Shown: one piece after another, positions 207 through 63,396 of the stretch
Numbering within the stretch: position 1 is the first letter of the stretch
Layout of the letters: every line of letters starts with the position of its first letter
Source: a virus
Taxonomy: Duplodnaviria; Caudoviricetes
DNA length: 64,000 bases
IMG/VR virus record: IMGVR_UViG_3300029288_002061
Span: 32,001 to 96,000 of that record
Strand: one strand, 5' to 3'
Notes under the pieces: model-generated
The model's database searches: none
The model's input: the letters and a program-made list of their open reading frames with translations, nothing else
What the model was told of the DNA's origin: nothing
Translations under genes and position numbers: made by a program

Positions 207-1988
207 TTATCGTACACATCCCTTGTTTGAGGATTCTTCCACATAAGCATACCGAAGTGTTACCGTACCCTCGGTGAAAAACTCGTCCGTATCCATAACC
301 ACATTGGCAATCTTCGGAGAAGTCCGGATAACCGCCTTGTCTTGGGCCGACATCGGAGTTGTACCAGAAAGCAGAGTAAACCCGAAATTACCGTTATTCG
401 AGATAAACGGGGCGTCCAAAGAGCCTGTGCCTTGGATACCGGAGTTATAACCCCTTACAGAGAACGCGGTTGGGGAAGTAAACACCACCGTCCATTCCTC
501 GTTAATCGCATCATCTCCGATATACCAAGCACCAGAATCAAATGTAGCATTCCCAGTCCAGATTTCCAGTTCCGGGGTGGGCTGCCTTGAGTATTTTACA
601 AAGTCCACATAGGCAACGCCTTCCGACCCGTCAATGACACTGGTAATGTCGGAAAGATACGATGCTTTCCCGAATCCCGTGTAAGAGCTGGACTGGACGT
701 TGAAATAGTCATTCAGGCTTTCCCTGACATTGGTATCCACCGTCGAGGTCGCATAGTTGGCATAGATATAGACATTCGCTTCAAGGTTAATCGGCTGATA
801 TTTGGGATCAAACAGCTCTACCGTGGTTCCCGCGATTTGCCGTGGAGCCAGATAATCAAGGATATCCTGCTTTTGGCTAAGACTCATATTGGAACCGTCT
901 TCTGTCGCCACAAACAGCGATACCGGTATGGCACTTGACCGATTACAGTTCCGCCAACGGTCTACCGTGGCTCGGACGGCATTGACATTGTTCCGGGTGT
1001 CCGCAAGAGCTTCAAAGTCTTCCAGCGTAATAGCCCTGTAGAGCGCACGGAGCGCACGCGGGCCTTCCACCTTGGCTGATTGGATGGATTGTTCGTCCGT
1101 ACCGCCGGTGGCGGATGAGTTATTGGTTACGCTGACAGAAATCGGGGATCCGTTAAAGAGAATCTGGGAATCGACGATGGTAATGGTTCCTTCCCCGACA
1201 TTCCCCTGAGTCCCGCCGCCAACCCTGTAAATCGCGGATACGATAGCCCCGTTCGCGGGGATCTTTCCTTGACCGTTATCACCGAAATAGACATTGACAA
1301 CCCCGTTGGCATTCCGGAAAAGCATACAGTCTTGGGAACAGCTTTCCGAGTCGACAAGGGTTTCTACGATTTTCCACTTGGTATACCCGGCACCCTCGTT
1401 GATATAAATGCTTACAGAATCATCAATTACGGGAGTTTCTGGAAGTGTGAAGATCTGATTTGGGGCTGCGTTGGATTGTCCGAGAATGATAGGGTCACCC
1501 ACCGTTCCGGAAGTCTTTCCTTCTACCGCGCTGACTGTCCCGGTAGTGTACCCGGAAGGAATGGTCAAAGCAACAGAAGTCTCAAAATAGATGGGATTTG
1601 CCGAAGTGTCTGCATACGTATGCAGTAGGGTACTCTTAGGGATAAGTAGGTCATCCGAAAGGGCTTGGTCGATGGAAAATGTCACATCAACGGTCGCGGC
1701 GGTCTTCCCACGGAGTTCATAGTCAATCAGCTTGAGAAGGTTGACAACGGACTGTCGGGTAATCGCGGTCGGTAGGAAAGATTCTTCAGCCATACGGTCG
1801 ATATAGAAATGGATGTTATCCCCCATGTACGCCAAAAGTTCCATAAGAACGACACCGAAATCGCTGGGGTTCATATCGGTATATTCAGGGCAGAAGAACG
1901 GAAGTGTCCTGAGAAGGTCATCGCGGAGTGATTCATAATCCCGCGAAGTATAGTCTATTGTTGGCACGCGCCAAGTTTGTGTCGCCAT
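207..1988 (-). CDS. Baseplate wedge protein (baseplate J / T4 gp6-like)
   Basis: IDYTSRDYESLR, DFGVVLMELLAY, FGDNGQGKIP, YRVGGG.QGNV and RAITLEDFE motifs typical of baseplate J/Afp11-like proteins. Confidence 0.9.
   Translation of the reverse strand: MATQTWRVPTIDYTSRDYESLRDDLLRTLPFFCPEYTDMNPSDFGVVLMELLAYMGDNIHFYIDRMAEESFLPTAITRQSVVNLLKLIDYELRGKTAATVDVTFSIDQALSDDLLIPKSTLLHTYADTSANPIYFETSVALTIPSGYTTGTVSAVEGKTSGTVGDPIILGQSNAAPNQIFTLPETPVIDDSVSIYINEGAGYTKWKIVETLVDSESCSQDCMLFRNANGVVNVYFGDNGQGKIPANGAIVSAIYRVGGGTQGNVGEGTITIVDSQILFNGSPISVSVTNNSSATGGTDEQSIQSAKVEGPRALRALYRAITLEDFEALADTRNNVNAVRATVDRWRNCNRSSAIPVSLFVATEDGSNMSLSQKQDILDYLAPRQIAGTTVELFDPKYQPINLEANVYIYANYATSTVDTNVRESLNDYFNVQSSSYTGFGKASYLSDITSVIDGSEGVAYVDFVKYSRQPTPELEIWTGNATFDSGAWYIGDDAINEEWTVVFTSPTAFSVRGYNSGIQGTGSLDAPFISNNGNFGFTLLSGTTPMSAQDKAVIRTSPKIANVVMDTDEFFTEGTVTLRYAYVEESSNKGCVR
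1610..1625. repeat. 16-bp palindrome copy 1 (in baseplate J)
   Basis: ctgcatacgtatgcag. Confidence 0.95.
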
Positions 1989-1997
1989 GAAGGACTC

Positions 1998-2465
1998 CTA
2001 ACCGAATTGTGCCGTACTTTGGGCATCCGTAACCCATGCTTCCTGTTCCGCCGGATCAAGAAAGTACGGGAAGACAAGGTTACGCTTTACATTGGTCTTA
2101 ATCACTGTATAGGTTACACTGACATCGAGCCGCCCTTCTTGGCGGAACGTCCTGTCAATAACCAGATTATCCACAATCACGCGGGGTTCCCACCGTTCTA
2201 TGGCACCCCGGACGGCATACTCTACCTTGGCATCCAAAGCAGGGTCATTAGGCCGGAATACGATTTCCCGGAGATAGGAACCGAAAGAACGCCGCATGAC
2301 GCGGGAGCCTACCCGGATTCCAAGGATCTGAAGGATACTTTCTATGATATGCTGATCGCTCTCGGACTGTGTAACAGCTCCAAAAGCAGACACGCCGCCC
2401 GATTTCCGGGTAAACCGGAACGGGAAAGCCATACCGCGCCCTAGAAATCCCCTTGGGTCAGCCAT
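1998..2465 (-). CDS. Baseplate wedge / sheath initiator, gp25 family
   Basis: FLGRGMAFPF, IxESIxQILxxRxGxRVMRxxFGS and ERWEPRV motifs. Confidence 0.92.
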   Translation of the reverse strand: MADPRGFLGRGMAFPFRFTRKSGGVSAFGAVTQSESDQHIIESILQILGIRVGSRVMRRSFGSYLREIVFRPNDPALDAKVEYAVRGAIERWEPRVIVDNLVIDRTFRQEGRLDVSVTYTVIKTNVKRNLVFPYFLDPAEQEAWVTDAQSTAQFG

Positions 2466-2854
2466 TATTGATTATCCTTGCCGATAAAGCCTTCCAGTAA
2501 CGCGGCTAGTTGACGTTTGCCCTGTATGGTAGCCAACCGCCGCTCCAAGTCAAGTTGTTTTTCCAACTTTGATGTTGGCTGGATAGCCGCTATTTCCCTA
2601 TCTATGTAGTGGACAAGCATATCAAAGACGGCATTCATTGGGTCATAGTCCGAAGCTACCAGAATACCCTTGGCTTTGACAATCATGGTTCTTTGGTGAT
2701 TGAGCTTGTTAATGGCAAAGTTCATAACCCGGATTTCATCCACCAGCTTATCCCGGAATTCCTTCAACTGCTTGAATTGATACTCATCCACATCCCGGAG
2801 AAGCATTTCCCGTAGGGTTTGTAACGTTGCCTTGTCTTCGGCGGAAATCATCAT
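2465..2854 (-). CDS. Hypothetical helical protein in baseplate module
   Basis: ORF with GGAG RBS; its stop is coupled (TAATG) to the gp25 start. Confidence 0.65.
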   Translation of the reverse strand: MMISAEDKATLQTLREMLLRDVDEYQFKQLKEFRDKLVDEIRVMNFAINKLNHQRTMIVKAKGILVASDYDPMNAVFDMLVHYIDREIAAIQPTSKLEKQLDLERRLATIQGKRQLAALLEGFIGKDNQ

Positions 2855-2860
2855 AACTCC

Positions 2861-3136
2861 TTAATTCTCATCAGCATACACATTTGGGCTACCCGTTACT
2901 TGTGGGTTAGGCGGATGCGGGCAGGGGTCGCCTTTATGGTCATCTCCTATCCGGGCAACCCGTATTCCCTCGGCAAAAACTGTAGGACTACCATCTTTTT
3001 GTGTAGTAGTCCCGCAATGTGTGTCGATATCTCCTACCCTATGCACTGGGCTACCATTGGCGTAAGTTGTAGGACTCCCGCCGGTGGCTACCGCCCCACA
3101 CGCATGAACATCTCCAATACGACATACCTTGGGCAT
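2861..3136 (-). CDS. PAAR-domain spike-tip protein
   Basis: Three RxGD repeats (CRIGD, HRVGD, ARIGD), GSPTV/GSPNV and metal-binding His/Cys. Confidence 0.93.
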   Translation of the reverse strand: MPKVCRIGDVHACGAVATGGSPTTYANGSPVHRVGDIDTHCGTTTQKDGSPTVFAEGIRVARIGDDHKGDPCPHPPNPQVTGSPNVYADEN

Positions 3137-3147
3137 ATCTTCTACCT

Positions 3148-3891
3148 CTAATTATGGTCAATTCGGGGTGCATTATCCGCTATGTGCGTCTCGGAGTTGC
3201 GTACAAATTCACCCTTAACTGTAGTTGTATTATACCCGTCCACATTCAACTCTTCATCCCCAACTACGTACTGGGTATGATTCCCCTCGATAACCCTGAT
3301 AACATTGCCGTGGATCCGCTCTGAAACGTCCCCGTTGACCTCGGAATAGACATTCCCGACAACCTTGATTCGGACATTCCCGGCGGTATCTATGTCCACA
3401 AACGTCCCGGAAGCATGATAAATCTTAATACGTTCCTGATCCGGAGTATCATCGAACTCCACGGTATGTCCGGAAAGCGTCTTGAAGACATGGTTATAGG
3501 GATACTGGGCCTTATACGGGTCTGGAACGGTTGGGGTGGCCGGATTGATGCTCTGGACGGTGTTATCCGCCGTTCCTTGCGCCAAAGCCGGTGGCGGGGT
3601 GGCTTGAGAGAACCAAACCGCTGACCAAACGGGGTAATTCGGGTTCCCTGACTCAAACTCGCACCAAACCGCGTCTCCCTTGTTGGGAACGTGGAAGTCA
3701 CCCTTCTCGTGTTCCCCGTCGGATCCTGTTACCCCGACTTTTCCGAATGCCCAGTCTGTTACCAAAGTCTCCCCGAAGATTTCAGGGACTCTGAGACGGA
3801 CACGCCCAAGCATTTCCGGGTCGTTATTATCGACCACAAACGCTCGGTAGCAAAACGGATAGACATTCTTACCGGTATTTGAAAACATCAC
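3148..3891 (-). CDS. Baseplate spike (gp5/VgrG-like OB-fold plus beta-helix)
   Basis: VVDNNDPEMLGRVRLRVP, PxxGDAVWCEFESGNPNYPVW, SGHTVEFDDT and VxGN repeats. Confidence 0.92.
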   Translation of the reverse strand: MMFSNTGKNVYPFCYRAFVVDNNDPEMLGRVRLRVPEIFGETLVTDWAFGKVGVTGSDGEHEKGDFHVPNKGDAVWCEFESGNPNYPVWSAVWFSQATPPPALAQGTADNTVQSINPATPTVPDPYKAQYPYNHVFKTLSGHTVEFDDTPDQERIKIYHASGTFVDIDTAGNVRIKVVGNVYSEVNGDVSERIHGNVIRVIEGNHTQYVVGDEELNVDGYNTTTVKGEFVRNSETHIADNAPRIDHN

Positions 3892-4160
3892 TTAATCCTT
3901 GTATTGCACCGTTGACACCACTTCACACGTACCCACTTGTTATTCACGTTTTCAAGCCGGTAAATCACTTCTACCTTGCATACCGGACATAGAGTTGTAT
4001 CTTGAGCTTTTCTTGTATCTACCCGCTCTGCCTTGGCCTGTTCCTGTGCTACCTTGGCATCGTCTACCGTCACAACCTTTTGTACCACCGTGGGTTGTGA
4101 CATCGTGGTTATCTGAGCACGGGCTGCTTTTGCCATAGCTGATCCGCAATTACATCCCAT
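3888..4160 (-). CDS. Small Cys-rich/Zn-ribbon protein
   Basis: MGCNCG start, CPVC...CQRC; overlaps both neighbours in coupled fashion. Confidence 0.65.
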   Translation of the reverse strand: MGCNCGSAMAKAARAQITTMSQPTVVQKVVTVDDAKVAQEQAKAERVDTRKAQDTTLCPVCKVEVIYRLENVNNKWVRVKWCQRCNTRIK

Positions 4161-6206: not shown

Positions 6207-6222
6207 CTGCAAACGTATGCAG
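6207..6222. repeat. Palindrome copy 2 (intergenic, overlaps RBS)
   Basis: ctgcaaacgtatgcag. Confidence 0.95.
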
Positions 6223-10540: not shown

Positions 10541-10556
10541 CTGCATACGTATGCAG
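10541..10556. repeat. Palindrome copy 3 (after tube stop)
   Basis: aa-ctgcatacgtatgcag-tt. Confidence 0.95.
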
Positions 10557-24931: not shown

Positions 24932-26104
24932 CTAACATACCGGAACATCAGTAGGAACGTCCGGTACAGAACTTGTTGTGGTTACGCAGTTTGCATAATA
25001 ATCCCATACCGACCAAGGCTGTTCAAAACCCATAGTATCCACGAAATCAGGATTCGGGGTACTCCAAGTCAATGTCCCGCAGTCATAGTAGCTCGACCAG
25101 TAGTAATAGCATGACGGCGTTACCGCCGGTGGGGCCGGGACTGCCGGAGTTATTGTGACTTTGACATAATATACGCCCCAGTCTGTCCAATCCTGTACCT
25201 CCCCTGTGGTATCAACGTAGGTAAGCGTTACAGACCAAGAGCTTGTAAAGCAGTTATACATGGCTTGCCAGTAGAAATAGCACGTTGGTACTGGCAGAAT
25301 GCCTAGGTCTGGTGAAAGATAAGACTGTTTATTAACTCTTACATATCCAGTAGGATCGTTATCAAACCACGGATATTCCGGGCCGGTGCTTGACGATGAG
25401 GACAGTGACCATCTGGCATTTGCGCAATCATAGGTCGCCACCCATTTAAGGTAGGATATGACGGGCATAAAAGAGCATGTCGGGGTTATCGCCACGGTAC
25501 CGGAGCTGTTAAAAGTTACGAAAGATACGTTGATCGACAACGGCTCAAAGGAAAATGTCAGCGTCTTCAGATCATTGGATGTTATGCTCCCGCCGGATTG
25601 GATATATGGAATTCTGGCCGCGTCCAAGGCATACGTGAGCTGTTCCGCAGTTACCGTACCGTTCAACACAACGCTATAGCTACCCACGGTGAGCGTAAAA
25701 GAGACACAATCCACCAAACTTGTAGTGGGGATAATGACAAATCCGTGTGCGACAGTTAGGCTGTTTGAGGTTATTGTCGGAACCTCTTTGGACAGTACAA
25801 GAAGGCCGTTTGATACCGTAGTACCGAGGGTAATGGTAGTTGGCCTGCTAGTAAAGTCCAGTTGGCTTGTATAGGCGGAGTACGCCGGAACCGACCCTGA
25901 GTTGATAGGGGTACTGCATACGTATGCGGTCGCTATACAATCCGGACAATCGTCATAAGTCGAATAATCGTATTGAGATGTGTAATCTTCCCAGTCGCCC
26001 GTTCGGTAGCCGGTTACATCGTGACTACTTAGGTTATAGCATACCCGGCCAGAACGGAAGTTCGGAATCGGTATGGCATTAACTGGAAGTCTGATCTGTA
26101 CCAT
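24932..26104 (-). CDS. Cys/Trp/Tyr-rich repeat virion protein
   Basis: Three YxxWxxxYxCxxxxW repeats; N-terminal FRSxxVCY...CxDC module shared with 26407-27144. Confidence 0.65.
   Translation of the reverse strand: MVQIRLPVNAIPIPNFRSGRVCYNLSSHDVTGYRTGDWEDYTSQYDYSTYDDCPDCIATAYVCSTPINSGSVPAYSAYTSQLDFTSRPTTITLGTTVSNGLLVLSKEVPTITSNSLTVAHGFVIIPTTSLVDCVSFTLTVGSYSVVLNGTVTAEQLTYALDAARIPYIQSGGSITSNDLKTLTFSFEPLSINVSFVTFNSSGTVAITPTCSFMPVISYLKWVATYDCANARWSLSSSSSTGPEYPWFDNDPTGYVRVNKQSYLSPDLGILPVPTCYFYWQAMYNCFTSSWSVTLTYVDTTGEVQDWTDWGVYYVKVTITPAVPAPPAVTPSCYYYWSSYYDCGTLTWSTPNPDFVDTMGFEQPWSVWDYYANCVTTTSSVPDVPTDVPVC
25914..25929. repeat. Palindrome copy 5 (intragenic, 1 mismatch)
   Basis: ctgcatacgtatgcgg. 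Confidence 0.85.
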
Positions 26105-26396
26105 TATTACACCCGCAATCTGGAAGTTTTCCGGGTAGATAGTGGCGGCAGGATCCGCCACTGATCTTCGGACATACTTCGGTTATAACCGTCTTGTCGC
26201 TACATGATTTACCGTCTTCTCCAAGGTACTGACAATTTGGCACGTAAGAAGGTTTATAAATACTTGCAAGATACTTCTCTGCATCACCTTTACAGGCTTT
26301 TAGACATACGTTGATATCCGGCATACCGCCAAACTTATTGAGTTTGCACCGGATAAGACCTTCTTTGTCTGTAGCTTCCATACATGGGTATTCCAT
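26079..26396 (-). CDS. Cys-rich small protein
   Basis: Ten Cys in 105 aa; GGAG RBS. Confidence 0.6.
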   Translation of the reverse strand: MEYPCMEATDKEGLIRCKLNKFGGMPDINVCLKACKGDAEKYLASIYKPSYVPNCQYLGEDGKSCSDKTVITEVCPKISGGSCRHYLPGKLPDCGCNNGTDQTSS

Positions 26397-27872: not shown

Positions 27873-28241
27873 TTATAACCCACAATATACATACCAGTTA
27901 GAGCCATTATACAGCGCAATCCACCCGGTTTCCATGCTTTGTGCATCCGGAGTTGTGCAATTCTCGGACGCCGCTACCAGCCATCCCTTCTCCGGGCCTG
28001 TCGGGAATGTCCCCGTTTTGGCTAGACCTTTGTAGACAAGGCGACTGCATACGTTTGCAGTTTCAACCGAATCCAGTATCACAGCCGCCCTATTCCGGAC
28101 GGCGCGCTGGACTTCCGGAGCCAAGGACTCTTCATCCGTGATTTCTTCACTGATTTCGTCCGGGAAAAGGATAATTCTATTCCCAGTAAGCGGGATATTC
28201 AGTGTGAGTACGGTAGATTGGATATTCTTGATATACGGCAT
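27873..28241 (-). CDS. Virion decoration-like protein
   Basis: N-terminus paralogous to 14332-14541; YKG...YNGSNW module. Confidence 0.6.
   Translation of the reverse strand: MPYIKNIQSTVLTLNIPLTGNRIILFPDEISEEITDEESLAPEVQRAVRNRAAVILDSVETANVCSRLVYKGLAKTGTFPTGPEKGWLVAASENCTTPDAQSMETGWIALYNGSNWYVYCGL
28045..28060. repeat. Palindrome copy 6 (intragenic)
   Basis: ctgcatacgtttgcag. Confidence 0.95.
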
Positions 28242-32215: not shown

Positions 32216-32231
32216 CTGCATACGTCTGCAA
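32216..32231. repeat. Palindrome copy 7 (between stop and RBS)
   Basis: ctgcatacgtctgcaa. Confidence 0.95.
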
Positions 32232-42623: not shown

Positions 42624-43331
42624 CTACCTATCAATGAGTTGGTCAAGCTTATCAAAGAACCCGTCTTCAAATCCTTTTACTGCCGCGCCAAGTGCGCCAT
42701 GTTCGACATCCTTGGTGCGCATTCCGCTTTGTGTCTCCCCGGCAGTCTTTACGGCGTTATCCAGACTGTTATGGAATTCCGTAACAGTGCTATCAAAGAT
42801 GTGTTCCGCATCTTCTCCGAAGATTCCGGTAACAACTCTTATCAATGGGTATATAACATTTTCCGCAGAATTCCACAAGACAGCTTTTGCCGCCGCGATT
42901 TCCAGCGGAAGCTGTGTACACGCGAGTGTTTCAAAGAGCTTATGGGAAAGTGGTTCATCAAGTCCGCTTTCACTGTGCCCGTCGATTCCAAGGGTATTTC
43001 CGATATCGGTACTGGCAATGACGGTCTTGGCCGGGGATGCCAACGTATCAAGTACGCGGGCTTGCCGCTCCGGTTCCAACTCTTGAAAGCGGTTGATAGC
43101 AACGCCAAGTCCGGAAGTCGGGTTGGATTCTACAATCTTCCGCGCCTTCTCCGGGAGCTTTTTCATCTGGGATTTCGGGCTGATCTCTATGGAAGGTGTA
43201 GGGGAGCTATAGGGTTCAATGGCATGGGTCTTGGGGTTGTGCCACCATTTTGATCCATCTACCCGCGTCCAATAACTGGACTTCCGAATAAGCATGTCTG
43301 CAAACGTATGCAGTCCAAAAAGATTCTCCAC
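42624..43331 (-). CDS. Hypothetical protein with N-terminal W-rich module
   Basis: IRKSSYWTRVDGSKWWHNP..IEPY; AAGGAG RBS. Confidence 0.65.
   Translation of the reverse strand: MENLFGLHTFADMLIRKSSYWTRVDGSKWWHNPKTHAIEPYSSPTPSIEISPKSQMKKLPEKARKIVESNPTSGLGVAINRFQELEPERQARVLDTLASPAKTVIASTDIGNTLGIDGHSESGLDEPLSHKLFETLACTQLPLEIAAAKAVLWNSAENVIYPLIRVVTGIFGEDAEHIFDSTVTEFHNSLDNAVKTAGETQSGMRTKDVEHGALGAAVKGFEDGFFDKLDQLIDR
43298..43313. repeat. Palindrome copy 10 (5' end of CDS)
   Basis: ctgcaaacgtatgcag. Confidence 0.95.
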
Positions 43332-47138: not shown

Positions 47139-47150
47139 CCGTTCCTCCTA

Positions 47151-47166
47151 CTGCATACGTTTGCAG
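47151..47166. repeat. Palindrome copy 11 (between terS stop and RBS)
   Basis: ctgcatacgtttgcag. Confidence 0.95.
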
Positions 47167-47171
47167 TCGCC

Positions 47172-47678
47172 TTAGTTCTCTTCCTGCTTCATCAAAGACG
47201 GAACCGTGATTCCCAACCGCTTCATAATGTTATCACGTTTGTTCTTCAATTCCTCTACGTTGGCGCGGTTGATATCAATACCATCGACCACAAACGTCCC
47301 GTCAATCTTCTGGGCCGCCTTCGGTAGCATACCCGTATCCATCATGAATCTCAGCTTCCGCTCTATAATAGCATTCGCCTGACCCATGAAAGACACCTTA
47401 TCCGAGTTCCTTTCGGCGGACGCATAATCCGATATAGCCAACTGGAACAAATGGTCAAACTTCGCCAAAGCATCCCCAAACTCACTATCAATGTCCAACT
47501 TCCCCACATAGGCGGCATGATCGGCGCGGATTGCTTTTACATCCTGTGTAATAGTATTCGGATCCACTCCCAATACCTTCGCCATCATCCCCTTCTGAAT
47601 CCCCCTAAGCATCAACTCCCACACCTGACGGCGGCGCGTCATTGTCTCTTCTTTACTCTTTCTTCCACGGCGGGACAT
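47172..47678 (-). CDS. terS: Probable terminase small subunit (HTH)
   Basis: RRRQVWELMLRG...MAKVLGV...TITQDVKAIR HTH plus helical oligomerisation region; first gene of the late block. Confidence 0.6.
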   Translation of the reverse strand: MSRRGRKSKEETMTRRRQVWELMLRGIQKGMMAKVLGVDPNTITQDVKAIRADHAAYVGKLDIDSEFGDALAKFDHLFQLAISDYASAERNSDKVSFMGQANAIIERKLRFMMDTGMLPKAAQKIDGTFVVDGIDINRANVEELKNKRDNIMKRLGITVPSLMKQEEN

Positions 47679-48304: not shown

Positions 48305-48460
48305 GTGATAAGGGATTTCTTGAATGATATAGCCGATAAGGGTGTTGAGTTTCTACAGCGCCACGAAAGTCTTGAATTTATGGCTTTCTGTTGTATGGGA
48401 ATAGCTCTATTGCCGTTTTTGACTATCGGGTATGTATGTTCCCGCTTTTCTGGTAAATGA
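48305..48460 (+). CDS. 51-aa putative membrane protein (not in ORF track)
   Basis: AAGGAGG RBS at 48291-48297, GTG start; MIRDFLND...FMAFCCMGIALLPFLTIGYVCSRFSGK*. Confidence 0.55.
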   Translation: MIRDFLNDIADKGVEFLQRHESLEFMAFCCMGIALLPFLTIGYVCSRFSGK

Positions 48461-48476
48461 CTGCATACGTATGCAG
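48461..48476. repeat. Palindrome copy 12 (between convergent stops)
   Basis: ctgcatacgtatgcag. Confidence 0.95.
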
Positions 48477-48478
48477 TT

Positions 48479-51626: not shown

Positions 51627-51638
51627 GTTTCACCCTTT

Positions 51639-51654
51639 TTGCAGACGTATGCAG
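51639..51654. repeat. Palindrome copy 13 (upstream of start)
   Basis: ttgcagacgtatgcag. Confidence 0.95.
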
Positions 51655-51735
51655 TCCTAAATAGCAGGATTCTTATGGTTTCTTTGAAAAAGATCGGGAA
51701 ATTCCGTTTTCTGACAGCAGTATTGTTAGGGTACT

Positions 51736-53615: not shown

Positions 53616-53644
53616 AATATACAGCACAAACAAGCATTAGTCAA
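53616..53644 (-). promoter_or_regulatory. Sigma70-type early promoter
   Basis: TTGACT-N17-TATATT with upstream T-rich tract. Confidence 0.8.
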
Positions 53645-53661
53645 GAGAAAAATGAGAATTT

Positions 53662-54735: not shown

Positions 54736-54751
54736 CTGCATACGTATGCAG
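54736..54751. repeat. Palindrome copy 14 (upstream of start)
   Basis: ga-ctgcatacgtatgcag-tc. Confidence 0.95.
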
Positions 54752-56767: not shown

Positions 56768-56796
56768 AATATACACTACAGAAGCTTGTTAGTCAA
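56768..56796 (-). promoter_or_regulatory. Sigma70-type early promoter for ardC
   Basis: TTGACT-N17-TATATT; flanks resemble the 53616 promoter. Confidence 0.8.
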
Positions 56797-56820
56797 GAGA
56801 AAAAACAGAATTTTATTAGA

Positions 56821-56854: not shown

Positions 56855-56870
56855 CTGCATACGTCTGCAG
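56855..56870. repeat. Palindrome copy 15 (between stop and terminator)
   Basis: ctgcatacgtctgcag. Confidence 0.95.
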
Positions 56871-57448: not shown

Positions 57449-57727
57449 TCAATCATCCGACAGACTGATTTCGGTATTCAGATATTTAACGCCCATTTCT
57501 TTTTCCGCGTCCATAACGGCCTTCAATTCACCTCGCTTTCCGTCTTCCCGATAGGAGAATGCCACGATGGTTTCACACTTGGGACAGACAAAATACTTCC
57601 GTGTCACCTTGATAGGCTTCCCGGCGCAATCCAGAGCGTCCTCGTGCGGCACCGTTCGGGCAAAGTTCATGGTTTCATGGTCAAGAGGACAATACACTCT
57701 ATTCCCTTGAACGGATACACTTCCCAT
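57449..57727 (-). CDS. Zn-ribbon protein
   Basis: CPxD...CPKC. Confidence 0.55.
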   Translation of the reverse strand: MGSVSVQGNRVYCPLDHETMNFARTVPHEDALDCAGKPIKVTRKYFVCPKCETIVAFSYREDGKRGELKAVMDAEKEMGVKYLNTEISLSDD

Positions 57728-58401: not shown

Positions 58402-59388
58402 TTACATAGACGCCATAACCAAACAGCCACGGGCAACCGAATAAAGCGGATCCGGCACAAGACGGATCTCACTGATTTCAATGGGGAAGTCCTGCGTTGA
58501 AAAGACTTGCTTGAAGAGCTCAATGAATCCCGGCACCATAGCAGTACCACCAGCTATGACAATTGGCACCGGATTCTTGAACGCCGGGAGGTTATCCCCG
58601 TTTTCAAGACGATCTTTCATATTGGCAAGGGTATAGGTAATGACTTCTTTGTAATACGCATAGAGGGCCGCAATACGGCGGTCTGTGGTGTCGGGGTCAA
58701 GGTTCATGGTCTTTCCCTCTTTGAGGGCTGTGATTCTCGATGTAGGCTCCCCGCAGGCTTTGGATGCCTTTTGGTCAATCCAGTCCCCGGAACGGCATGA
58801 AGAGAATGCCAATACCGGGAGGGAACGGAAGGATACGCATGTATTGACCATGCCGCCGCCGAAAGACATGGCAATCCCTGTGAAGTCATCATTACTGAGC
58901 GCGTCCAGAGCAACCGCGTGGGCTTCCGTTGTCTCAATAGGCTCCATGCCAAGATGCCGCAAGGCACCCTCGATGATGTTCTTGTGGAATACGTTGTCAA
59001 TCTGGGTGTCAATTGGGTTTGCGGGGCAGGAATAGGCGACTTTTGCTCCCTTTTCAACGCCGGAATCGTTAAGAAGCTTCTCAATCATCCGGGTGATCAT
59101 CGGGACGGCTTCCATCTCCCCGCTGGAAATGACGCCTGATGCCATAGGACGGCGAAGGTCTTTCCCAAAGGTCGTTGCCATTTCAAAAGCATCATCGCCG
59201 ATCAGATAAAGGTTCTTATCCTTTTCATAGTATGGCATTTTCAACTGCTTAAGCATACTCAGGGCGAATTTATCCTTGCCGATTTCAAGAAAGTTATTCC
59301 GCATCCGGAGGACTTTTGAGCCTGTATCGGTAGGGACACACACAACAAGGTTTGCCGTTCCGGGGTCGAGCGAAGCCACCATAACCAT
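58402..59388 (-). CDS. Actin-like ATPase (MreB/ParM superfamily, volactin-like)
   Basis: Phosphate-1 LDPGTAN, RRPMxxG, EAxA, phosphate-2 SFGGG, GDWID, adenosine IAGGT and P.YSVARG. Confidence 0.9.
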   Translation of the reverse strand: MVMVASLDPGTANLVVCVPTDTGSKVLRMRNNFLEIGKDKFALSMLKQLKMPYYEKDKNLYLIGDDAFEMATTFGKDLRRPMASGVISSGEMEAVPMITRMIEKLLNDSGVEKGAKVAYSCPANPIDTQIDNVFHKNIIEGALRHLGMEPIETTEAHAVALDALSNDDFTGIAMSFGGGMVNTCVSFRSLPVLAFSSCRSGDWIDQKASKACGEPTSRITALKEGKTMNLDPDTTDRRIAALYAYYKEVITYTLANMKDRLENGDNLPAFKNPVPIVIAGGTAMVPGFIELFKQVFSTQDFPIEISEIRLVPDPLYSVARGCLVMASM

Positions 59389-59822
59389 TAACTATCTCCT
59401 TTGAGCCGTTTTAGTGCTTGTATACTACTCGTAATACTGTTAGAGTCAACTGTTTCCGCTTTGGCGGATGATAAATTATCCGCATTTTTTGATTGAAAGA
59501 ACGCATCCGGAAGGGTTTCACTCCCGACTTCAACCGCCGACCGGTGTTCCCGCAGGGCTTCAGGGACTGCATACGTCTGCAATTTCCCCGGCATGGTTTC
59601 GGTCATGGCGGCCTTTACAGCACCATAGATAACCGAATAAAGGCGGTCATAATCCAGTTCTACGGCGGTATTTGCGGCAGCGGGTTCGGATTGTACGGTT
59701 TGGATGACCAAAGAACGCATTGCTTTCTTCAGACACTCCTCGTCCTTCTGATTCAGAGAGCTAAACCCGCCAACAGAGCGTTTATTTTGCTCCCAGAAGG
59801 CATCGAACATGTCTTTTGGCAT
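59388..59822 (-). CDS. Hypothetical protein translationally coupled to actin (candidate adaptor)
   Basis: TAATG overlap with the actin start; C-terminal amphipathic helix SIQALKRLK. Confidence 0.6.
   Translation of the reverse strand: MPKDMFDAFWEQNKRSVGGFSSLNQKDEECLKKAMRSLVIQTVQSEPAAANTAVELDYDRLYSVIYGAVKAAMTETMPGKLQTYAVPEALREHRSAVEVGSETLPDAFFQSKNADNLSSAKAETVDSNSITSSIQALKRLKGDS
59567..59582. repeat. Palindrome copy 16 (in actin-coupled gene)
   Basis: ctgcatacgtctgcaa. Confidence 0.95.
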
Positions 59823-59843
59823 AAATAGGCTCCGTTTTTGGGC

Positions 59844-60203: not shown

Positions 60204-60217
60204 AGCTCTGTTCCGTC

Positions 60218-60667
60218 CTAAAGTACATGCAATACCCCAATTATACCAATTTCCTTGATCCGGCCTGACCATGTTCCGGGTTTTACCTTGGTTTCGGCCT
60301 TTGGACGGGCAACATTGATATGGATCTCAACAACTTTCTCGTCTTTGTTCCTGACATAGGGTTCGTCGGGCAACCAAACCCGCCCCCAGTCTTCTTGAAG
60401 CTCTTTCACCCAACCACGGACGTATGCTTGGGCGTCCCTGACGGGGATTCCGGCGGGTTTTTCCTTCCAGTCCGCCGAGAATATCATATCCTGATGCTTA
60501 CAATGCCCGCGAAGTTCAAAAGCCTTGCAAGTGCAAGACTCTTTGGACATATGATAAACAGTTTCGTCAAGGATACCTTCATCCGAATAGGTGATTTTCA
60601 GCACATCAAACTGACCTTCACCCGTCGGTTTCAGTATGTAGGAGTGTTCTTTATGCGTTTTTGGCAT
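60218..60667 (-). CDS. SWIM zinc-finger protein
   Basis: CTCKAF...CKH. Confidence 0.8.
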   Translation of the reverse strand: MPKTHKEHSYILKPTGEGQFDVLKITYSDEGILDETVYHMSKESCTCKAFELRGHCKHQDMIFSADWKEKPAGIPVRDAQAYVRGWVKELQEDWGRVWLPDEPYVRNKDEKVVEIHINVARPKAETKVKPGTWSGRIKEIGIIGVLHVL

Positions 60668-61563
60668 TATGACACCTTCTTAGCCAGTTCCGCGATATCC
60701 GGATTGCAGTATTCAACCGTTCCGTCATGAGAAGCGGCAAAGATCTTGACGCCATAGGCGGTCTCAATGCGGGATAGGAGGGTATTCAGGAGGTCTTCCC
60801 GCCCAGTAAGGCATTCCGCAAGGAACGCTTGGGCGATACATTCCATAAGCCAAGGTTCTTTATCCGATCCCGTGATATCCTTGGCTTTCTGCATGGCGTT
60901 CTGCCACACGTTCCAGATCGGTTCGGGCAATCCGGCACGGAACATATGAATGACTTCTTGAGGTTTTGATTGGATTGATACATCTTCCGCCTTGATGCTT
61001 CCGACGGCCTTGCTTACCGCCACGTCCACATCCTCGCCGGTATGGGCTGCGCGGGTTCTGGCATCACTGGCGACCTGAGCGGCCTTTGTCTTCGCCGTAT
61101 TGGACATCTCCCGGAGTTCGTTATAGGTCTTCCCTTTGACCTTTTCCATCCAGTCTTCCGAGTTGTCCCGCGTGATAATCCCCTTATTGACCAGCGGGGC
61201 CAGTGTAGCGGCCTTTGTCCACCCCAGCCGCTCCACATCGGCTTCCGTGAATGCACCCTTTTCCACCGCGCCGAAGACATCCAGAAGATAATAAGCCTTC
61301 CGCTCCCGGAATCCCAGTTCTCGCTCGCAATACTCGTCAAAAGACTGATATCCCCATGACATCCAAACGGGCTTTCCGTTGTCCAGCGTCCGGATACTGA
61401 CTTGCTTCAGCTTCGCGCCCAAATGGTAATAGGTCTTTTCAATCCCTTCCCGGAGTTCCAAGACTTCCGCCCGGAGAGCTTGCGCATCACTGACGGACAT
61501 CTTGAGTTCTTCCGGAATCACCTGAGTGTCAATCACAAGCACATCACTGTTTTTCTTACTCAT
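60667..61563 (-). CDS. HTH DNA-binding protein resembling plasmid-partition (PFam49/DUF3102-like) proteins
   Basis: LGxKL...W..WGYQSFDEYCERELGFRERKAYYL motif. Confidence 0.6.
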   Translation of the reverse strand: MSKKNSDVLVIDTQVIPEELKMSVSDAQALRAEVLELREGIEKTYYHLGAKLKQVSIRTLDNGKPVWMSWGYQSFDEYCERELGFRERKAYYLLDVFGAVEKGAFTEADVERLGWTKAATLAPLVNKGIITRDNSEDWMEKVKGKTYNELREMSNTAKTKAAQVASDARTRAAHTGEDVDVAVSKAVGSIKAEDVSIQSKPQEVIHMFRAGLPEPIWNVWQNAMQKAKDITGSDKEPWLMECIAQAFLAECLTGREDLLNTLLSRIETAYGVKIFAASHDGTVEYCNPDIAELAKKVS

Positions 61564-61978
61564 TATCTACCCTTTCGGTATACACGGCCATGTAATCCTT
61601 CAACCTAGAAGGAGTTACGCCAATTCTCAATCCCATTTCCATGAAAGAGAGGTTCTTGGAGAGGGAATCATTGATGAAATGCTGGGGTGATTCATATCCT
61701 ACCGAGCGGACTTTACAACAGAATTCCGGCCATGTCAAATTATATTTTGACAACCAATAGCGGATTGTCCCTTCCGACACCCCGATAAGCTTGGCAAGGG
61801 TGGAATTGTTATAACCCCGCTTATTCAGATACCAGTAGAGGACTTCCGCCGGATCATCCGACCGATAACCTTCTTGATTAGCTTGGGCTAAAAGCCTTCT
61901 ATGATCCAAAATGCCACCCGCCTTTCTCCTGTACCAACTGGCGGATTGCTTTTCCGTCCACATAATCCAGAAAATCAT
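61556..61978 (-). CDS. Double-HTH protein (true start probably about 61909)
   Basis: LAKLIGVSEGTIRYW and MGLRIGVTPSRL. Confidence 0.65.
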   Translation of the reverse strand: MIFWIMWTEKQSASWYRRKAGGILDHRRLLAQANQEGYRSDDPAEVLYWYLNKRGYNNSTLAKLIGVSEGTIRYWLSKYNLTWPEFCCKVRSVGYESPQHFINDSLSKNLSFMEMGLRIGVTPSRLKDYMAVYTERVDNE

Positions 61979-62480
61979 TGAATTTCATGAAGGTAAGCCG
62001 TTCCGTCTCCACGGTGGGATCTTCACACCGCCCGACTACAAAGTGCATGGACGGAATAGCCGAAAACGGGCCTGAAACGGCTTTCAGCCATTGATATTCC
62101 TTCCGACCGACCATCATAAGAGCATTTGCCAACCCAGCCGTCTTTGAGAACACAACCATCCGCTGCTTCCCGGCTTTGACCGGGGCCATATCGTTCATCT
62201 CAAACCACCAGTCAAGTATCGGATGCTTCTTGGCCGTAAGGAGCTGTTCAAGATGCCATTCCGGGCCACTCCCGCCTTTGCGCTGCTTGGCGTCCACACA
62301 CCAAGGGAATTCCTTGTCAAACTCCGGAGTTGTCGCTACAATATCCCCTTCGGCGCGCTTCAGGGGCCATCCGCCGGAACACGGAGAGCGCCGGAGCGTC
62401 GTTTGATCTCCAAAATACCACTCACTGAGGGCTTTTGCCATAACGAGCTCAAAAGACTTCCACTTCTGACTATTAGCCAT
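61899..62480 (-). CDS. Holliday-junction resolvase-like PD-(D/E)XK nuclease
   Basis: KxxSFE...RxPxSGG...GDI...VDAK. Confidence 0.7.
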   Translation of the reverse strand: MANSQKWKSFELVMAKALSEWYFGDQTTLRRSPCSGGWPLKRAEGDIVATTPEFDKEFPWCVDAKQRKGGSGPEWHLEQLLTAKKHPILDWWFEMNDMAPVKAGKQRMVVFSKTAGLANALMMVGRKEYQWLKAVSGPFSAIPSMHFVVGRCEDPTVETERLTFMKFNDFLDYVDGKAIRQLVQEKGGWHFGS

Positions 62481-63396
62481 TGCTTTCCTTCCACCTCTGT
62501 TCAAAGATATCCGAGAACTTCCCGAAGCAAATATCCCTAAAAGCACACCGCTTTGCAGCCGCGCAAGACTTATTCTGACACGACGCCGGGACAAGGATCT
62601 TTCCCGCGTTCATTTTGTAATAATCTTCCGCAATACGCCGGATTTCCGCCTCGATAAGCGGATCGAAATAAATCTTGATCTCTTTGGTGGGATTTGCCAT
62701 GTTAGAGGACTTATCCACGTAGAGGATAATGGAGCGGCGGATATTCAAACCCATCATATAGCAATGGACTTGGTAGATATAGGACAAAGATGGTTCTTTC
62801 AAGTCCCGGAATCGGTCTGGGTCGATGGTTTTGATATCCATAACCCAAGGGCCGTCACCACGGTCAATGATGCCGTCACAATGCCCGACTATTCCCAATT
62901 CCGGAATCAGGATCTCCGGCTCAACAAACCGCCACCGACCACATCCGCAACTGCATACGTCTGCAGGACGGAATCCTTCCACGATGGATTCACATTGCGG
63001 ACACCTCCAACCGCCTTTCAGGATGCCCATCTGTCCAAGATAGTGATTCTGATACCAGTGGTGAATAGCATGGCCGATATCAAACTTTGCTTGGAGAGTA
63101 GCGGAAATGGATTCCTCGAATGTCATCCCCGTGATAGCCGGATCATCCTTCATAACTTCCAGAAAGTTCTCGTCATACATCTTGGCACGGTAACACATAC
63201 CATAGATTTGCGAAGGATGGAGTCCTTTTGCGCGTTTTTCATCCGTTTTCCGGAAAAAGCCAGTGGATAGCGCCGTTTTCAACGGTTCTGAGACGACATC
63301 ACCACCAAATTCCCACTTTTTGGCTATGGATTCGGCAATATCGGATTCTGTCTGCTTCTGTTTGTGGAATGCCGCGTGAATATCTGCTAGGCTCAT
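62473..63396 (-). CDS. Cas4/RecB-like PD-(D/E)XK exonuclease
   Basis: HPS...C.R, GHAIH, GHCDG, DIKT, QxxxY and C-terminal Cys cluster. Confidence 0.85.
   Translation of the reverse strand: MSLADIHAAFHKQKQTESDIAESIAKKWEFGGDVVSEPLKTALSTGFFRKTDEKRAKGLHPSQIYGMCYRAKMYDENFLEVMKDDPAITGMTFEESISATLQAKFDIGHAIHHWYQNHYLGQMGILKGGWRCPQCESIVEGFRPADVCSCGCGRWRFVEPEILIPELGIVGHCDGIIDRGDGPWVMDIKTIDPDRFRDLKEPSLSYIYQVHCYMMGLNIRRSIILYVDKSSNMANPTKEIKIYFDPLIEAEIRRIAEDYYKMNAGKILVPASCQNKSCAAAKRCAFRDICFGKFSDIFEQRWKESNG
62951..62966. repeat. Palindrome copy 17 (in Cas4-like gene)
   Basis: ctgcatacgtctgcag. Confidence 0.95.

What the first reader, a model, noticed from the sequence alone, without database searches (positions are those of the whole stretch)
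1610..62966. Genome-wide lattice of a 16-bp palindrome (A)CTGCATACGTHTGCAG: 17 copies, about one per 4 kb
Seen: copies at 1610, 6207, 10541, 17563, 25914, 28045, 32216, 34781, 36815, 43298, 47151, 48461, 51639, 54736, 56855, 59567 and 62951. Sixteen match TGCA-N-ACGT-N-TGCA exactly (12 fixed bases, about 0.004 expected in 64 kb at equal base frequencies); one has a single mismatch. Nearly all carry a perfect ACTGCATACGT half, on either strand. Eight are intergenic, often squeezed between a stop and the next RBS. Nine lie inside unrelated genes in different frames (LHTYAD, VQTFAV, AYVCS, ANVCS, ADVCS, LHTSA, LHTFAD, LQTYAV, ADVCS), so selection acts on the DNA and not on the protein. Gaps are 1.3-8.4 kb, with no clustering at promoters, and copies occur in both early and late regions. 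Known analogues: parS and Noc NBS (16-bp palindromes), matS/SlmA sites, mycobacteriophage stoperators. Inference: binding sites for a dimeric protein that organises, positions, protects or silences the whole phage chromosome.
Basis: partly seen in the sequence, partly recalled or inferred. Interest (0 to 1): 0.92.

Follow-up and report, generated by a model that had tools for sequence, protein, structure and literature searches.

The report
Evenly spaced phage palindrome docking lattice
An uncultured 106-kb tailed phage keeps the same 14-18-letter DNA palindrome about every 4 kb along its genome, even inside genes; it is most likely the docking site of the phage's own ParB/KorB-like DNA-binding protein, and five cultured phages with a distant relative of that protein carry a similar lattice, so the pairing can be tested at the bench.

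Summary
The window has 16 exact copies of TGCA-N-ACGT-N-TGCA plus one with a single mismatch. The whole 106,039-bp contig has 26 exact copies, where chance predicts none.

- **Spacing:** the copies are more evenly spaced than random placement (CV 0.50, P about 1e-4).
- **Location:** 11 of 26 lie in the roughly 6% of DNA that is non-coding.
- **Coding context:** the intragenic copies vanish in codon-preserving shuffles.
- **Conservation:** the 12 fixed bases are kept at 8 of 9 orthologous places in relatives whose flanks are only 75% identical.

So the DNA word itself is under selection.

The best candidate reader is the 298-aa protein at window 60667-61563. Its core folds like the DNA-binding domain of ParB/KorB (Z 6-7.6, moderate). 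It has no ParB CTPase domain.

Five cultured phages were chosen only because they encode a distant homolog of this protein: Stenotrophomonas DLP_5, Rhodobacter RcZahn, Vibrio VH2_2019, Rhizobium L338C and Aeromonas HJ05. Each carries 18-48 TGCA-N6-TGCA palindromes, against 0-2 for a control pattern. The papers I read on two of these groups do not mention them.

Binding has not been measured and the function is inferred. Earlier agents in this scan reported similar lattices on other phage DNA. Published precedents are the Cluster O mycobacteriophage repeats and the KorB operators of plasmid RK2.

The parts
1609..1626 (.). palindrome copy (core 1611-1624), inside baseplate-wedge gene 207-1988
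   Evidence: kept 12/12 in relative L051
6206..6223 (.). palindrome copy (core 6208-6221), squeezed between a stop codon and the next ribosome-binding site
   Evidence: kept in L028
10540..10557 (.). palindrome copy (core 10542-10555), perfect 18-mer, intergenic
   Evidence: kept in L028 and L122
17562..17579 (.). palindrome copy (core 17564-17577), inside gene 17111-18061, two genes after the major capsid gene
   Evidence: kept in L122 and L161; arose by substitution, not insertion
25913..25930 (.). one-mismatch copy (core 25915-25928), inside gene 24932-26161
28044..28061 (.). palindrome copy (core 28046-28059), inside gene 27873-28241
   Evidence: kept in L078
32215..32232 (.). palindrome copy (core 32217-32230), between a stop codon and the next ribosome-binding site; absent from relative L078
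34780..34797 (.). palindrome copy (core 34782-34795), inside gene 34483-35067
   Evidence: kept in L078
36814..36831 (.). palindrome copy (core 36816-36829), in a lineage-specific insert near the 5' end of the large terminase gene 35154-36995
43297..43314 (.). palindrome copy (core 43299-43312), near the 5' end of gene 42624-43331
47150..47167 (.). palindrome copy (core 47152-47165), 6 nt after the stop of the probable small terminase gene and 2 nt before the next ribosome-binding site
48460..48477 (.). palindrome copy (core 48462-48475), perfect 18-mer, 3 nt after the stop of the DUF4942 methyltransferase-like gene
51638..51655 (.). palindrome copy (core 51640-51653), intergenic, 4 nt before a ribosome-binding site
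   Evidence: kept in L196
54735..54752 (.). palindrome copy (core 54737-54750), perfect 20-mer, intergenic
   Evidence: kept in L196
56854..56871 (.). palindrome copy (core 56856-56869), intergenic, directly before a terminator hairpin and an early promoter
59566..59583 (.). palindrome copy (core 59568-59581), inside the 144-aa gene about 180 nt before the actin-like gene; the longest invariant run of that gene's alignment
62950..62967 (.). palindrome copy (core 62952-62965), inside the Cas4-like PD-(D/E)XK exonuclease gene 62473-63432
   Evidence: kept in L196, L198 and L200
60667..61563 (-). 298-aa protein, best candidate reader: ParB/KorB-type helix-turn-helix DNA-binding domain (residues about 24-176) plus a C-terminal domain, with no ParB CTPase domain
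   Evidence: PF02195 absent
61556..61978 (-). 140-aa protein with two weak helix-turn-helix matches, always directly upstream of the 298-aa gene; second candidate reader
59388..59822 (-). 144-aa, partly disordered protein whose stop overlaps the start of the actin-like gene; possible adaptor
58402..59388 (-). actin-like ATPase (Pfam Volactin, E 5.5e-73), in conserved synteny with the 298-aa gene

Best explanation
The palindromes are double-stranded DNA docking sites for a two-fold symmetric, sequence-specific phage protein. Selection keeps at least one site every few kilobases along the whole chromosome. Each half-site is about 10 bp: (G)ACTGCA-K-AC. The two TGCA boxes lie one helical turn apart. 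Most sites pair one perfect half with one weaker half.

The most likely reader is the 298-aa protein at 60667-61563. Its core resembles the helix-turn-helix DNA-binding domain of ParB/KorB, but it lacks the ParB CTP-binding N-domain. I therefore expect it to sit on its sites rather than slide from them.

What I consider shown:
- the lattice exists;
- it is under purifying selection at the DNA level;
- it is evenly spaced;
- this protein family co-occurs with TGCA-N6-TGCA lattices in otherwise different phages.

What is inferred:
- that this protein binds the sites (about 50%);
- that the bound array marks or organises the phage chromosome.

My preferred function (about 25-30%) is tethering or positioning of replicating or plasmid-state phage DNA, possibly through the neighbouring 144-aa protein and the actin-like ATPase. 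Blocking of transcription at bound sites could be a second effect, as with the dual-role KorB.
For: Enrichment, absence of free half-sites, and even spacing.

Intragenic copies are not explained by codon or amino-acid content. 11 of 26 copies lie outside called genes, where only about 6% of the contig is non-coding.

The 12 fixed bases are kept 12/12 at 8 of 9 orthologous places while flanks are 75% identical; the N positions change. The site is the longest invariant run in the 144-aa gene alignment. Sites arose by substitution in variable protein regions, not as inserted elements.

RNA hairpin stability ranges from -4.2 to -11.5 kcal/mol although the 12 bases never change. All copies within a genome share one spelling, with no compensatory variants.

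Relatives carry sister spellings that always keep the TGCA arms.

Reader:
- AF2 models have pLDDT 78 (whole protein) and 88 (domain only).
- Of 48,161 PDB representatives the top hits are the ParB DNA-binding domain with parS (Z 7.6 and 6.7) and KorB (Z 6.0, 6.1, 5.5). Spo0J and SopB also appear. The top weak Foldseek rows are ParB and Noc.
- The helix-turn-helix WG-x-SFDEYCERELGFRERKAYYLL is nearly invariant across 18 homologs.
- Contigs carrying close homologs hold the motif: L196, L198, L199 and L200. L201 has one copy and L197 has weaker variants.
- Five cultured phages picked only by homology to this protein have 38, 28, 34, 48 and 18 TGCA-N6-TGCA palindromes, against 0, 0, 0, 2 and 0 for the reversed control pattern. 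Spacing is even in DLP_5 (CV 0.49, P=1e-4) and RcZahn (CV 0.63, P=0.006).
- G007 has neither the protein nor a lattice.
- DLP5 is kept as a phagemid in lysogens (PMC5834331; PMC7326821).
Against: No binding has been measured.

The fold matches are only moderate (Z below 8 for a helical domain). Foldseek E-values are not significant. Pfam, PDB sequence and profile searches found nothing.

The cultured phages share a whole recombination and replication module with this phage (helicase, RecA/UvsX, nucleases). DLP3 and DLP5 also encode true ParB-domain proteins.

G006 has five copies of a sister palindrome, GACTGCAGAC-N-GTCTGCAGTC, but no detectable homolog of the 298-aa protein in the 73% of its genome that is sampled.

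L202 has a homolog but no site in 14 kb.

The link to actin is weak: G006 has sites but no actin-like gene was found in it. I did not check the cultured phages for an actin-like gene.
Confidence: 0.55

Rival explanations
1. The sites are read by a different phage protein. Candidates are the 140-aa double helix-turn-helix protein (61556-61978) that always sits next to the 298-aa gene, the small Zn-ribbon protein (57449-57727) shared with G006, or a ParB-type protein encoded in the roughly 21% of the genome that is missing. The 298-aa protein would then only travel with the same gene module.
For: The contig is about 79% complete. The double helix-turn-helix gene is syntenic in all relatives. A 10-bp half-site would suit a two-part DNA-binding domain. 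The Zn-ribbon protein is one of the few non-structural proteins shared by G000 and G006, with a very weak Ogr/Delta-like match in G006 (E 0.29). DLP3 and DLP5 encode ParB-domain proteins. Earlier agents of this scan tie similar lattices to ParB-like proteins.
Against: No ParB_N match in G000. The ParB_N protein of G006 is paired with a methyltransferase-like gene and has a 1e-67 homolog in lattice-free G007. The recognition helices of the double helix-turn-helix protein differ among contigs that share the same motif. The Zn-ribbon match is not significant.
Confidence: 0.2
2. The sites mimic the operator of a host LacI/GalR-family regulator. The phage DNA would recruit or titrate that host repressor, for example a maltodextrin or purine regulator.
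For: The word has the architecture of LacI-family operators as I know them: a 14-bp palindrome with a central CG and arms five bases out (own knowledge). The identical 18-mer is a single intergenic copy between malQ and a TonB-dependent receptor gene in several Alkalimonas genomes, and lies next to an alpha-amylase gene in Idiomarina. LacI-family genes are present in those genomes. The phage has no LacI-type helix-turn-helix of its own.
Against: The host is unknown. Sister spellings occur in phages of 39-68% GC. One of them (G006) has an odd-length centre without a central CG, which does not fit LacI-type binding. Even spacing is not needed for a decoy. The cultured phages have centres such as TCAA/TTGA and TTAA with no CG at all.
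Confidence: 0.07
3. The sites are cut or nicked by a phage endonuclease (the HNH or one of the PD-(D/E)XK enzymes of the RecA module). This would create evenly spread ends that start recombination-dependent replication.
For: RecA, HNH, a Cas4-like exonuclease, a PDDEXK_15 endonuclease, a helicase and PolA form one module. The HNH gene is present in the dense-lattice contigs that cover that region (L196, L199, L200) and was not found in L197. Homodimeric nucleases read palindromes (own knowledge).
Against: Cutting a palindrome on both strands would fragment the genome. L197 does carry weak variants of the word, so its lack of HNH is not a clean contrast. HNH similarity to G006 is limited to the catalytic motif. 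No data on nicks.
Confidence: 0.06
4. The word works in RNA, as a hairpin between cistrons for processing, stability or translational control.
For: Several copies abut a ribosome-binding site or sit just after a stop codon. The perfect copies fold into 8-9 bp hairpins.
Against: More than half of the copies are inside coding sequence. Stem length varies from 4 to 9 pairs while the 12 bases are invariant. There are no compensatory changes among copies. The flanking AC/GT and the N positions are often unpaired. Tiny intergenic spacers are simply the least harmful places to put a DNA site.
Confidence: 0.03

Closest known systems
KorB and its OB operators on IncP plasmid RK2 (PMC11790492)
   Same: One short palindrome is scattered over a whole mobile replicon at intervals of a few kb, both near and far from promoters. 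It is read by a protein with a ParB-type helix-turn-helix domain that serves in both partition and global repression. That RK2 has 12 OB sites is my own knowledge; the paper was read for the clamp mechanism.
   Different: KorB has the CTP-binding N-domain and slides as a clamp, and it works with KorA and IncC. No ParB_N domain was found here and partners were not searched for. The density here is similar or higher, and many sites lie inside essential phage genes.
17-bp dyad repeats of Cluster O mycobacteriophages (Corndog; PMC4351075)
   Same: More than 30 invariant copies of an inverted repeat spread through a phage genome. They lie between genes, near gene starts and inside genes, mostly at the same places in relatives. 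The authors propose a dimeric binder, doubt a transcriptional role, and report the word absent from the host genomes they checked.
   Different: The word is different (TGTTCGGNNNCCGAACA), as are the phage lineage and host. The function is also unknown there and no reader was singled out. Even spacing was not tested in that paper.
Actin-based DNA positioning: ParM-ParR-parC of plasmid R1 and AlpC-AlpA-alpS of prophage CGP3 (PMC4446434, PMC5539076)
   Same: An actin-like ATPase gene has a small co-transcribed partner gene and a copy of the DNA word close by. In CGP3 the system supports phage DNA replication.
   Different: Known centromeres are clusters of direct repeats next to the operon (24 alpS repeats in CGP3), not single palindromes dispersed over the genome. 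DNA binding by the 144-aa partner is not supported by any fold or family match.
Stoperators of Cluster A mycobacteriophages and C1 operators of phage P1 (own knowledge, not checked in a paper here)
   Same: Many copies of a repressor site are dispersed over a phage genome, often in very short intergenic gaps.
   Different: Those sites are asymmetric. Stoperators are oriented with transcription and are read by the immunity repressor. Here the word is symmetric with no clear orientation preference (11 against 6), and no repressor or integrase was found.

Membership tests
ParB/KorB-type protein with palindromic docking sites | Several copies of one 13-18 bp palindrome on the replicon | tested here: met
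   26 exact copies on 106 kb, with 0 expected
ParB/KorB-type protein with palindromic docking sites | Reader carries the ParB/KorB helix-turn-helix DNA-binding domain | tested here: inconclusive
   ParB DBD-parS is the top hit (Z 7.6 and 6.7). KorB gives Z 5.4-6.1, Spo0J Z 5.0 and SopB Z 4.3. The top weak Foldseek rows are ParB and Noc. No sequence-level match in Pfam or PDB.
ParB/KorB-type protein with palindromic docking sites | N-terminal CTP-binding ParB_N domain (clamp) | tested here: not met
   PF02195 has no match at E<=1 in the six frames of the contig, while the control genomes ring. The contig is only about 79% complete, so a separate gene could lie in the missing part.
ParB/KorB-type protein with palindromic docking sites | Specific binding of the protein to the palindrome | not testable with these tools
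   Only co-occurrence is available: 5 of 5 cultured phages with a homolog have TGCA-N6-TGCA lattices.
Type II (actin-based) partition or positioning system | Actin-fold ATPase | tested here: met
   Pfam Volactin PF25216, E 5.5e-73, full length
Type II (actin-based) partition or positioning system | Adjacent co-transcribed DNA-binding adaptor | tested here: inconclusive
   The 144-aa gene ends at 59388, where the actin-like gene starts. No family or fold was found for it; the Atlas model has pLDDT 0.55.
Type II (actin-based) partition or positioning system | Centromere made of clustered repeats next to the operon | tested here: not met
   There is a single copy inside the 144-aa gene; all copies are at least 1.3 kb apart.
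Cluster O-type dispersed dyad repeats | Tens of invariant inverted repeats, between and inside genes, kept at the same places in relatives | tested here: met
   compared with PMC4351075
Stoperators | Asymmetric site oriented with transcription | tested here: not met
   The word is a palindrome. The asymmetric variants point both ways in a genome transcribed almost entirely in one direction.
LacI/GalR-family operator | 14-bp palindrome with a central CG | tested here: met
   Sequence. The same 18-mer lies at mal loci of Alkalimonas and Idiomarina.
LacI/GalR-family operator | LacI-type helix-turn-helix regulator available to read it | tested here: not met
   PF00356 has no match on the phage. 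The host is unknown, so a host regulator cannot be tested.

The most novel reading that the evidence does not exclude
A family of ParB/KorB-like DNA-binding proteins that lack the CTPase clamp domain reads TGCA-N6-TGCA palindromes written every 2-4 kb. The family is shared by otherwise different myo- and siphophages (this uncultured lineage, Stenotrophomonas DLP5-like, Rhodobacter RcZahn, Vibrio, Rhizobium and Aeromonas phages). The whole phage chromosome would then act as one long centromere or silencing platform. In this lineage it would be coupled to a phage actin-like filament; in DLP5 it would be coupled to life as a plasmid prophage.
Probability: 0.2. Interest if true: 0.85.

Novelty: new variant of a known kind. 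Interest (0 to 1): 0.66.

Why it matters
Genome-wide palindrome arrays in phages have been seen before (Cluster O mycobacteriophages) and were never explained. Here the array is shown to be under strong DNA-level selection and to be evenly spaced. It is also tied to one conserved candidate reader. One of them, DLP5, lives as a plasmid prophage. This turns an unexplained sequence pattern into a direct bench question: does this ParB/KorB-like protein coat the phage chromosome, and is that for partition, positioning of replication, silencing or protection? A reader that lacks the CTP clamp domain would also show how ParB-type DNA-binding domains are reused outside classical partition systems.

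Tried and rejected
1. **Chance or codon bias.** Rejected by dinucleotide-preserving and codon-preserving shuffles.
2. **Mobile 18-bp insertion element.** Rejected. Intragenic copies align with orthologs without indels, or lie in variable stretches, and arose by substitution.
3. **RNA hairpin or terminator.** Unlikely; hairpin stability is not conserved and there is no covariation.
4. **Host repeat such as an uptake sequence or REP.** Among 185,579 species genomes the perfect 18-mer occurs in 12 stretches, one copy each; the five genomes checked hold only 1-3 copies of the 14-bp motif.
5. **Phage LacI-type or ParB_N protein.** None found.
6. **ParB_N protein of G006 next to one of its sites.** It pairs with a methyltransferase-like gene and has a close homolog in lattice-free G007.
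7. **TerS as reader.** It is present in lattice-free G007. Ring-forming TerS would suit direct repeats rather than inverted ones (own knowledge); no further support.
8. **Ogr/Delta-like Zn-ribbon protein.** Only an E 0.29 match, in G006; the sites are not placed upstream of promoters.
9. **The 144-aa protein and the HNH gene as markers of the motif.** This rested on L197 being motif-free, which turned out to be wrong.
10. **Restriction-site avoidance.** TGCA and ACGT are not unusually depleted.
11. **Early promoters.** They are a separate motif, TCTCTTGACT-N17-TATAGT. Only two palindrome copies lie just downstream of a promoter-like -10 element (contig positions 5567 and 14067, both outside the window).
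12. **Host identification.** Failed.
13. **Sequence-level searches of the 298-aa protein.** Pfam, PDB by single sequence and PDB by profile all found nothing.

Full report
**Observation.** The pattern TGCA-N-ACGT-N-TGCA occurs 16 times exactly in the window and once more with a single mismatch. Dinucleotide-preserving shuffles give 0.00 exact matches and 0.10 with one mismatch or fewer. The half-site TGCANACGT never occurs outside a full site.

The window is bases 32001-96000 of a single 106,039-bp contig, an IMG/VR linear virus record that CheckV rates about 79% complete. The contig has 26 exact copies, three with one mismatch and one with two, so the fall-off from the exact word is very sharp.

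Pooling both halves of every site gives the half-site (G)ACTGCA-[T 31, G 16, A 7, C 0]-AC. Most sites join one perfect half to one weaker half.

**What the genome is.**
- It is a contractile-tailed phage: sheath, baseplate wedge and portal are recognisable.
- Nearly all genes are on the minus strand.
- About a dozen strong sigma-70-type early promoters share the word TCTCTTGACT-N17-TATAGT. This is a different motif from the palindrome.
- The early and replication part encodes RecA and PolA (both with inteins), a helicase, a Cas4-like exonuclease, a PDDEXK_15 endonuclease, an HNH endonuclease, two methyltransferase-like proteins and an actin-like ATPase of the Volactin family.
- No cultured phage is similar at the DNA level.

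**Is the lattice selected?** Four independent tests say yes.
1. *Spacing.* The 25 gaps have a mean of 4.2 kb and CV 0.50. Random placement gives a CV that low in 1.5e-4 of trials, and a smallest gap of at least 1310 bp in 1e-4 of trials.
2. *Placement.* 11 of 26 copies lie outside called genes, although only about 6% of the contig is non-coding. Several fill the whole gap between a stop codon and the next ribosome-binding site.
3. *Coding content.* In 200 shuffles that keep every protein and the codon usage, the 15 intragenic copies drop to about 0.1.
4. *Conservation.* In metagenomic relatives whose flanks are 70-82% identical, the 12 fixed bases are kept 12/12 at 8 of 9 orthologous places, while the two N positions change. 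The ninth place lacks the site. Early-region relatives keep most sites at matching places. In the alignment of the 144-aa gene from four phages (mean column identity 70%), the palindrome is the longest invariant run.

Comparison with distant orthologs shows that intragenic copies arose by substitution in variable stretches or lineage-specific inserts, for example LQTTA to LHTYA in the baseplate wedge. They did not arise by insertion of an 18-bp element.

**DNA or RNA?** As RNA the copies would fold with 4 to 9 base pairs and -4.2 to -11.5 kcal/mol, yet the 12 bases never vary. The N positions and the flanking AC/GT are often unpaired. All copies in one genome share one spelling, with no compensatory variants. 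This is what a sequence-reading dimer on duplex DNA predicts, and not what a structural hairpin predicts. The closeness of some copies to ribosome-binding sites is most simply explained by the tiny intergenic gaps being the least harmful places for a DNA site.

**Spread among relatives.**
- The same word occurs in relatives of 39-51% GC.
- More distant phages with a related capsid gene carry sister spellings that always keep the TGCA arms: ACTGCAAACGTTTGCAGC, ACTGCAATCGATTGCAGT and AGTGCACATGTGTGCACT.
- The 68%-GC relative G006 has five copies of GACTGCAGAC-N-GTCTGCAGTC.
- L201 has TGCAGACGTCTGCA.
- L197, which I first called motif-free, has two copies of CTGCAAACGATCGCAG and three further near-matches in 20.8 kb.
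- G007 (82 kb) has none.

**Who reads it?**

*Negative results.* The phage has no LacI-type helix-turn-helix and no ParB N-terminal domain. The small terminase subunit, an Ogr-like Zn-ribbon protein, the HNH enzyme and the 144-aa protein were considered and found no good support.

*The 298-aa protein at 60667-61563.* This protein stands out for four reasons.
- Its segment WG-x-SFDEYCERELGFRERKAYYLL reads like a ParB-type helix-turn-helix (my reading) and is almost invariant in 18 homologs.
- The protein atlas gave weak leads to DUF3102 and 'ParB HTH' clusters (score 0.82).
- An AF2 model of the whole protein (pLDDT 78) and one of residues 20-180 alone (pLDDT 88) were compared with 48,161 PDB representatives. 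The best match both times was the ParB DNA-binding domain bound to parS (6s6h_B; Z 7.6 with 122 residues aligned, and Z 6.7 with 106). Next came KorB (1r71_A and 8qa8_A, Z 5.4-6.1), Spo0J (Z 5.0) and SopB (Z 4.3).
- Foldseek gave no significant E-value, but its top rows were ParB and Noc.

These Z-scores are moderate for a helical domain. I therefore treat the fold assignment as probable, not proven.

*Independent test in cultured phages.* A tblastn search of cultured phage genomes with this protein found distant homologs, 24-34% identical over the DNA-binding part, in 15 records. These include Stenotrophomonas DLP_5/DLP_3/Summit, Rhodobacter RcZahn, Vibrio VH2_2019/PG28, Rhizobium L338C/RHph_I4/P11VFA and Aeromonas HJ05. 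I scanned five of them, chosen only for having the homolog, for TGCA-N6-TGCA.

| Phage | Genome (kb) | TGCA-N6-TGCA copies | Reversed control pattern |
|---|---|---|---|
| Stenotrophomonas DLP_5 | 96.5 | 38 | 0 |
| Rhodobacter RcZahn | 101.6 | 28 | 0 |
| Vibrio VH2_2019 | 81.7 | 34 | 0 |
| Rhizobium L338C | 109.6 | 48 | 2 |
| Aeromonas HJ05 | 79 | 18 | 0 |

- The DLP_5 copies are nearly all TGCAAT-CA/TG-ATTGCA.
- Spacing is again even: DLP_5 CV 0.49, P=1e-4; RcZahn CV 0.63, P=0.006.
- DLP_5 is a siphophage with a tape-measure gene, not a relative of this myophage. It does share the order helicase, recombinase, nucleases, this protein.
- G007 has neither the protein (profile search) nor a lattice.

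The protein family and the TGCA-armed lattice therefore travel together across very different phages. Because a whole module travels with them, the neighbouring small double helix-turn-helix protein remains a possible reader.

**Function.** Nothing computed here decides what the bound array does.
- Even spacing and indifference to gene context argue for a role tied to the DNA as a physical object: positioning, partition, compaction or protection. They argue against control of particular promoters. Only two copies lie just downstream of a promoter-like -10 element (contig positions 5567 and 14067, outside the window), and two lie upstream of a terminator-promoter unit (22105 on the contig; 56856 in the window).
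The one site kept in every contig that covers this gene lies inside that partner gene. This recalls ParM-ParR-parC and AlpC-AlpA-alpS (PMC4446434). However, G006 has sites without a detectable actin-like gene, and I did not check the cultured phages for one.
- DLP5 is maintained as a phagemid (PMC5834331; PMC7326821), which fits a partition or silencing role.

My preferred reading is docking for chromosome positioning or partition, with roadblock-type silencing as a side effect, as with KorB. I give it about 25-30%.

**Host-factor rival.** The identical 18-mer is a single intergenic copy between malQ and a TonB-dependent receptor gene in several Alkalimonas genomes, and next to an alpha-amylase gene in Idiomarina. 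Each of the five genomes checked holds 1-3 copies of the 14-bp motif. The word also has the layout of LacI-family operators (own knowledge). A host repressor could therefore in principle read the phage sites. Three things argue against this: the odd-centred G006 variant, the CG-less centres in the cultured phages, and the even spacing.

**Compared with what is known.** Cluster O mycobacteriophages carry 34 copies of TGTTCGGNNNCCGAACA, between and inside genes. Their authors suggested a dimeric binder and doubted a transcriptional role (PMC4351075). KorB of plasmid RK2 reads dispersed OB palindromes and acts as a CTP-dependent sliding clamp and repressor (PMC11790492).

This case is the same in kind. 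It differs in three ways: the candidate reader lacks the clamp domain, it has an actin-like neighbour, and the pairing extends to cultured phages. The papers on DLP3/DLP5 and on RcZahn do not mention palindromes, and the exact words are absent from the paper library.

Earlier agents of this scan reported similar evenly spaced lattices on other phage DNA, mostly tied to ParB-like proteins. I used those notes only as leads.

**Verdict.**
- The finding is a new variant of a known but unexplained kind.
- Interest is 0.66.

Noticed in passing
Phage records NC_042082.1 (DLP_5), MW677529.1 (RcZahn), MN794238.1 (VH2_2019), NC_023502.1 (L338C), OQ594355.1 (HJ05): Five cultured phages carry 18-48 evenly spread TGCA-N6-TGCA palindromes each, for example TGCAATCAATTGCA in DLP_5. 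The papers I read on DLP3/DLP5 and RcZahn do not mention them.
   Followed up: partly
window 53616-53648 and 56768-56800 (minus strand); 13 copies on the contig: A family of strong sigma-70-type early promoters: an AT-rich upstream stretch, then TCTCTTGACT, 17 nt, then TATAGT or TATATT. It is a separate motif from the palindrome.
   Followed up: partly
window 58402-59388: A phage-encoded actin-like ATPase with a full-length match to Pfam Volactin (E 5.5e-73). It is conserved next to the RecA/PolA module in relatives down to 38% identity.
   Followed up: partly
window 35154-36995 and 47172-47678: The large terminase gene and the probable small terminase gene are adjacent in relatives G006 and G007. 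Here they are about 10 kb apart. The intervening genes include a 733-aa protein (44173-46374) with DUF5661 and a weak ADP-ribosyltransferase match, and palindrome copies sit at both edges of the insert.
   Followed up: no
window 32234-33064: A 276-aa protein in the structural module matches the PI3/PI4-kinase catalytic domain (E 1.2e-10). G006 has two homologs.
   Followed up: no
L154:303-3689 (contig 303-3689, outside the window): The phage carries cas7, csd1/cas8c and cas5d genes, a type I-C-like Cascade (Pfam E 4.5e-42, 1e-12 and 6.5e-5). I saw no cas3 or adaptation genes. One palindrome copy lies in cas7.
   Followed up: partly
L156:465-2789 and L156:6182-10039 (outside the window): RecA and family-A DNA polymerase are each interrupted by inteins with LAGLIDADG endonuclease domains.
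   Followed up: no
contig 21362-21660 (outside the window): A tandem array of 15-nt units (CCGGAATTCCAATTC-like), probably a pentapeptide-repeat coding region.
   Followed up: no
L154:7399-7920 (outside the window): Four tRNA genes (Asp, Asn, His, Met) in a cluster.
   Followed up: no
L124, L125, L129, L130, L134 (Alkalimonas), L127 (Idiomarina): The perfect 18-mer ACTGCATACGTATGCAGT is a conserved single intergenic site between malQ and a TonB-dependent receptor gene, or next to an alpha-amylase gene. It is probably the operator of a maltodextrin regulator in these bacteria.
   Followed up: partly
L145:5033-5611 and L145:4365-5036 (G006): A ParB_N-domain protein (GGHQR in place of the GERR motif) is followed by a methyltransferase-like protein just upstream of the terminase genes. 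The pair is conserved in G007 (E 1e-67 and 1e-92).
   Followed up: partly
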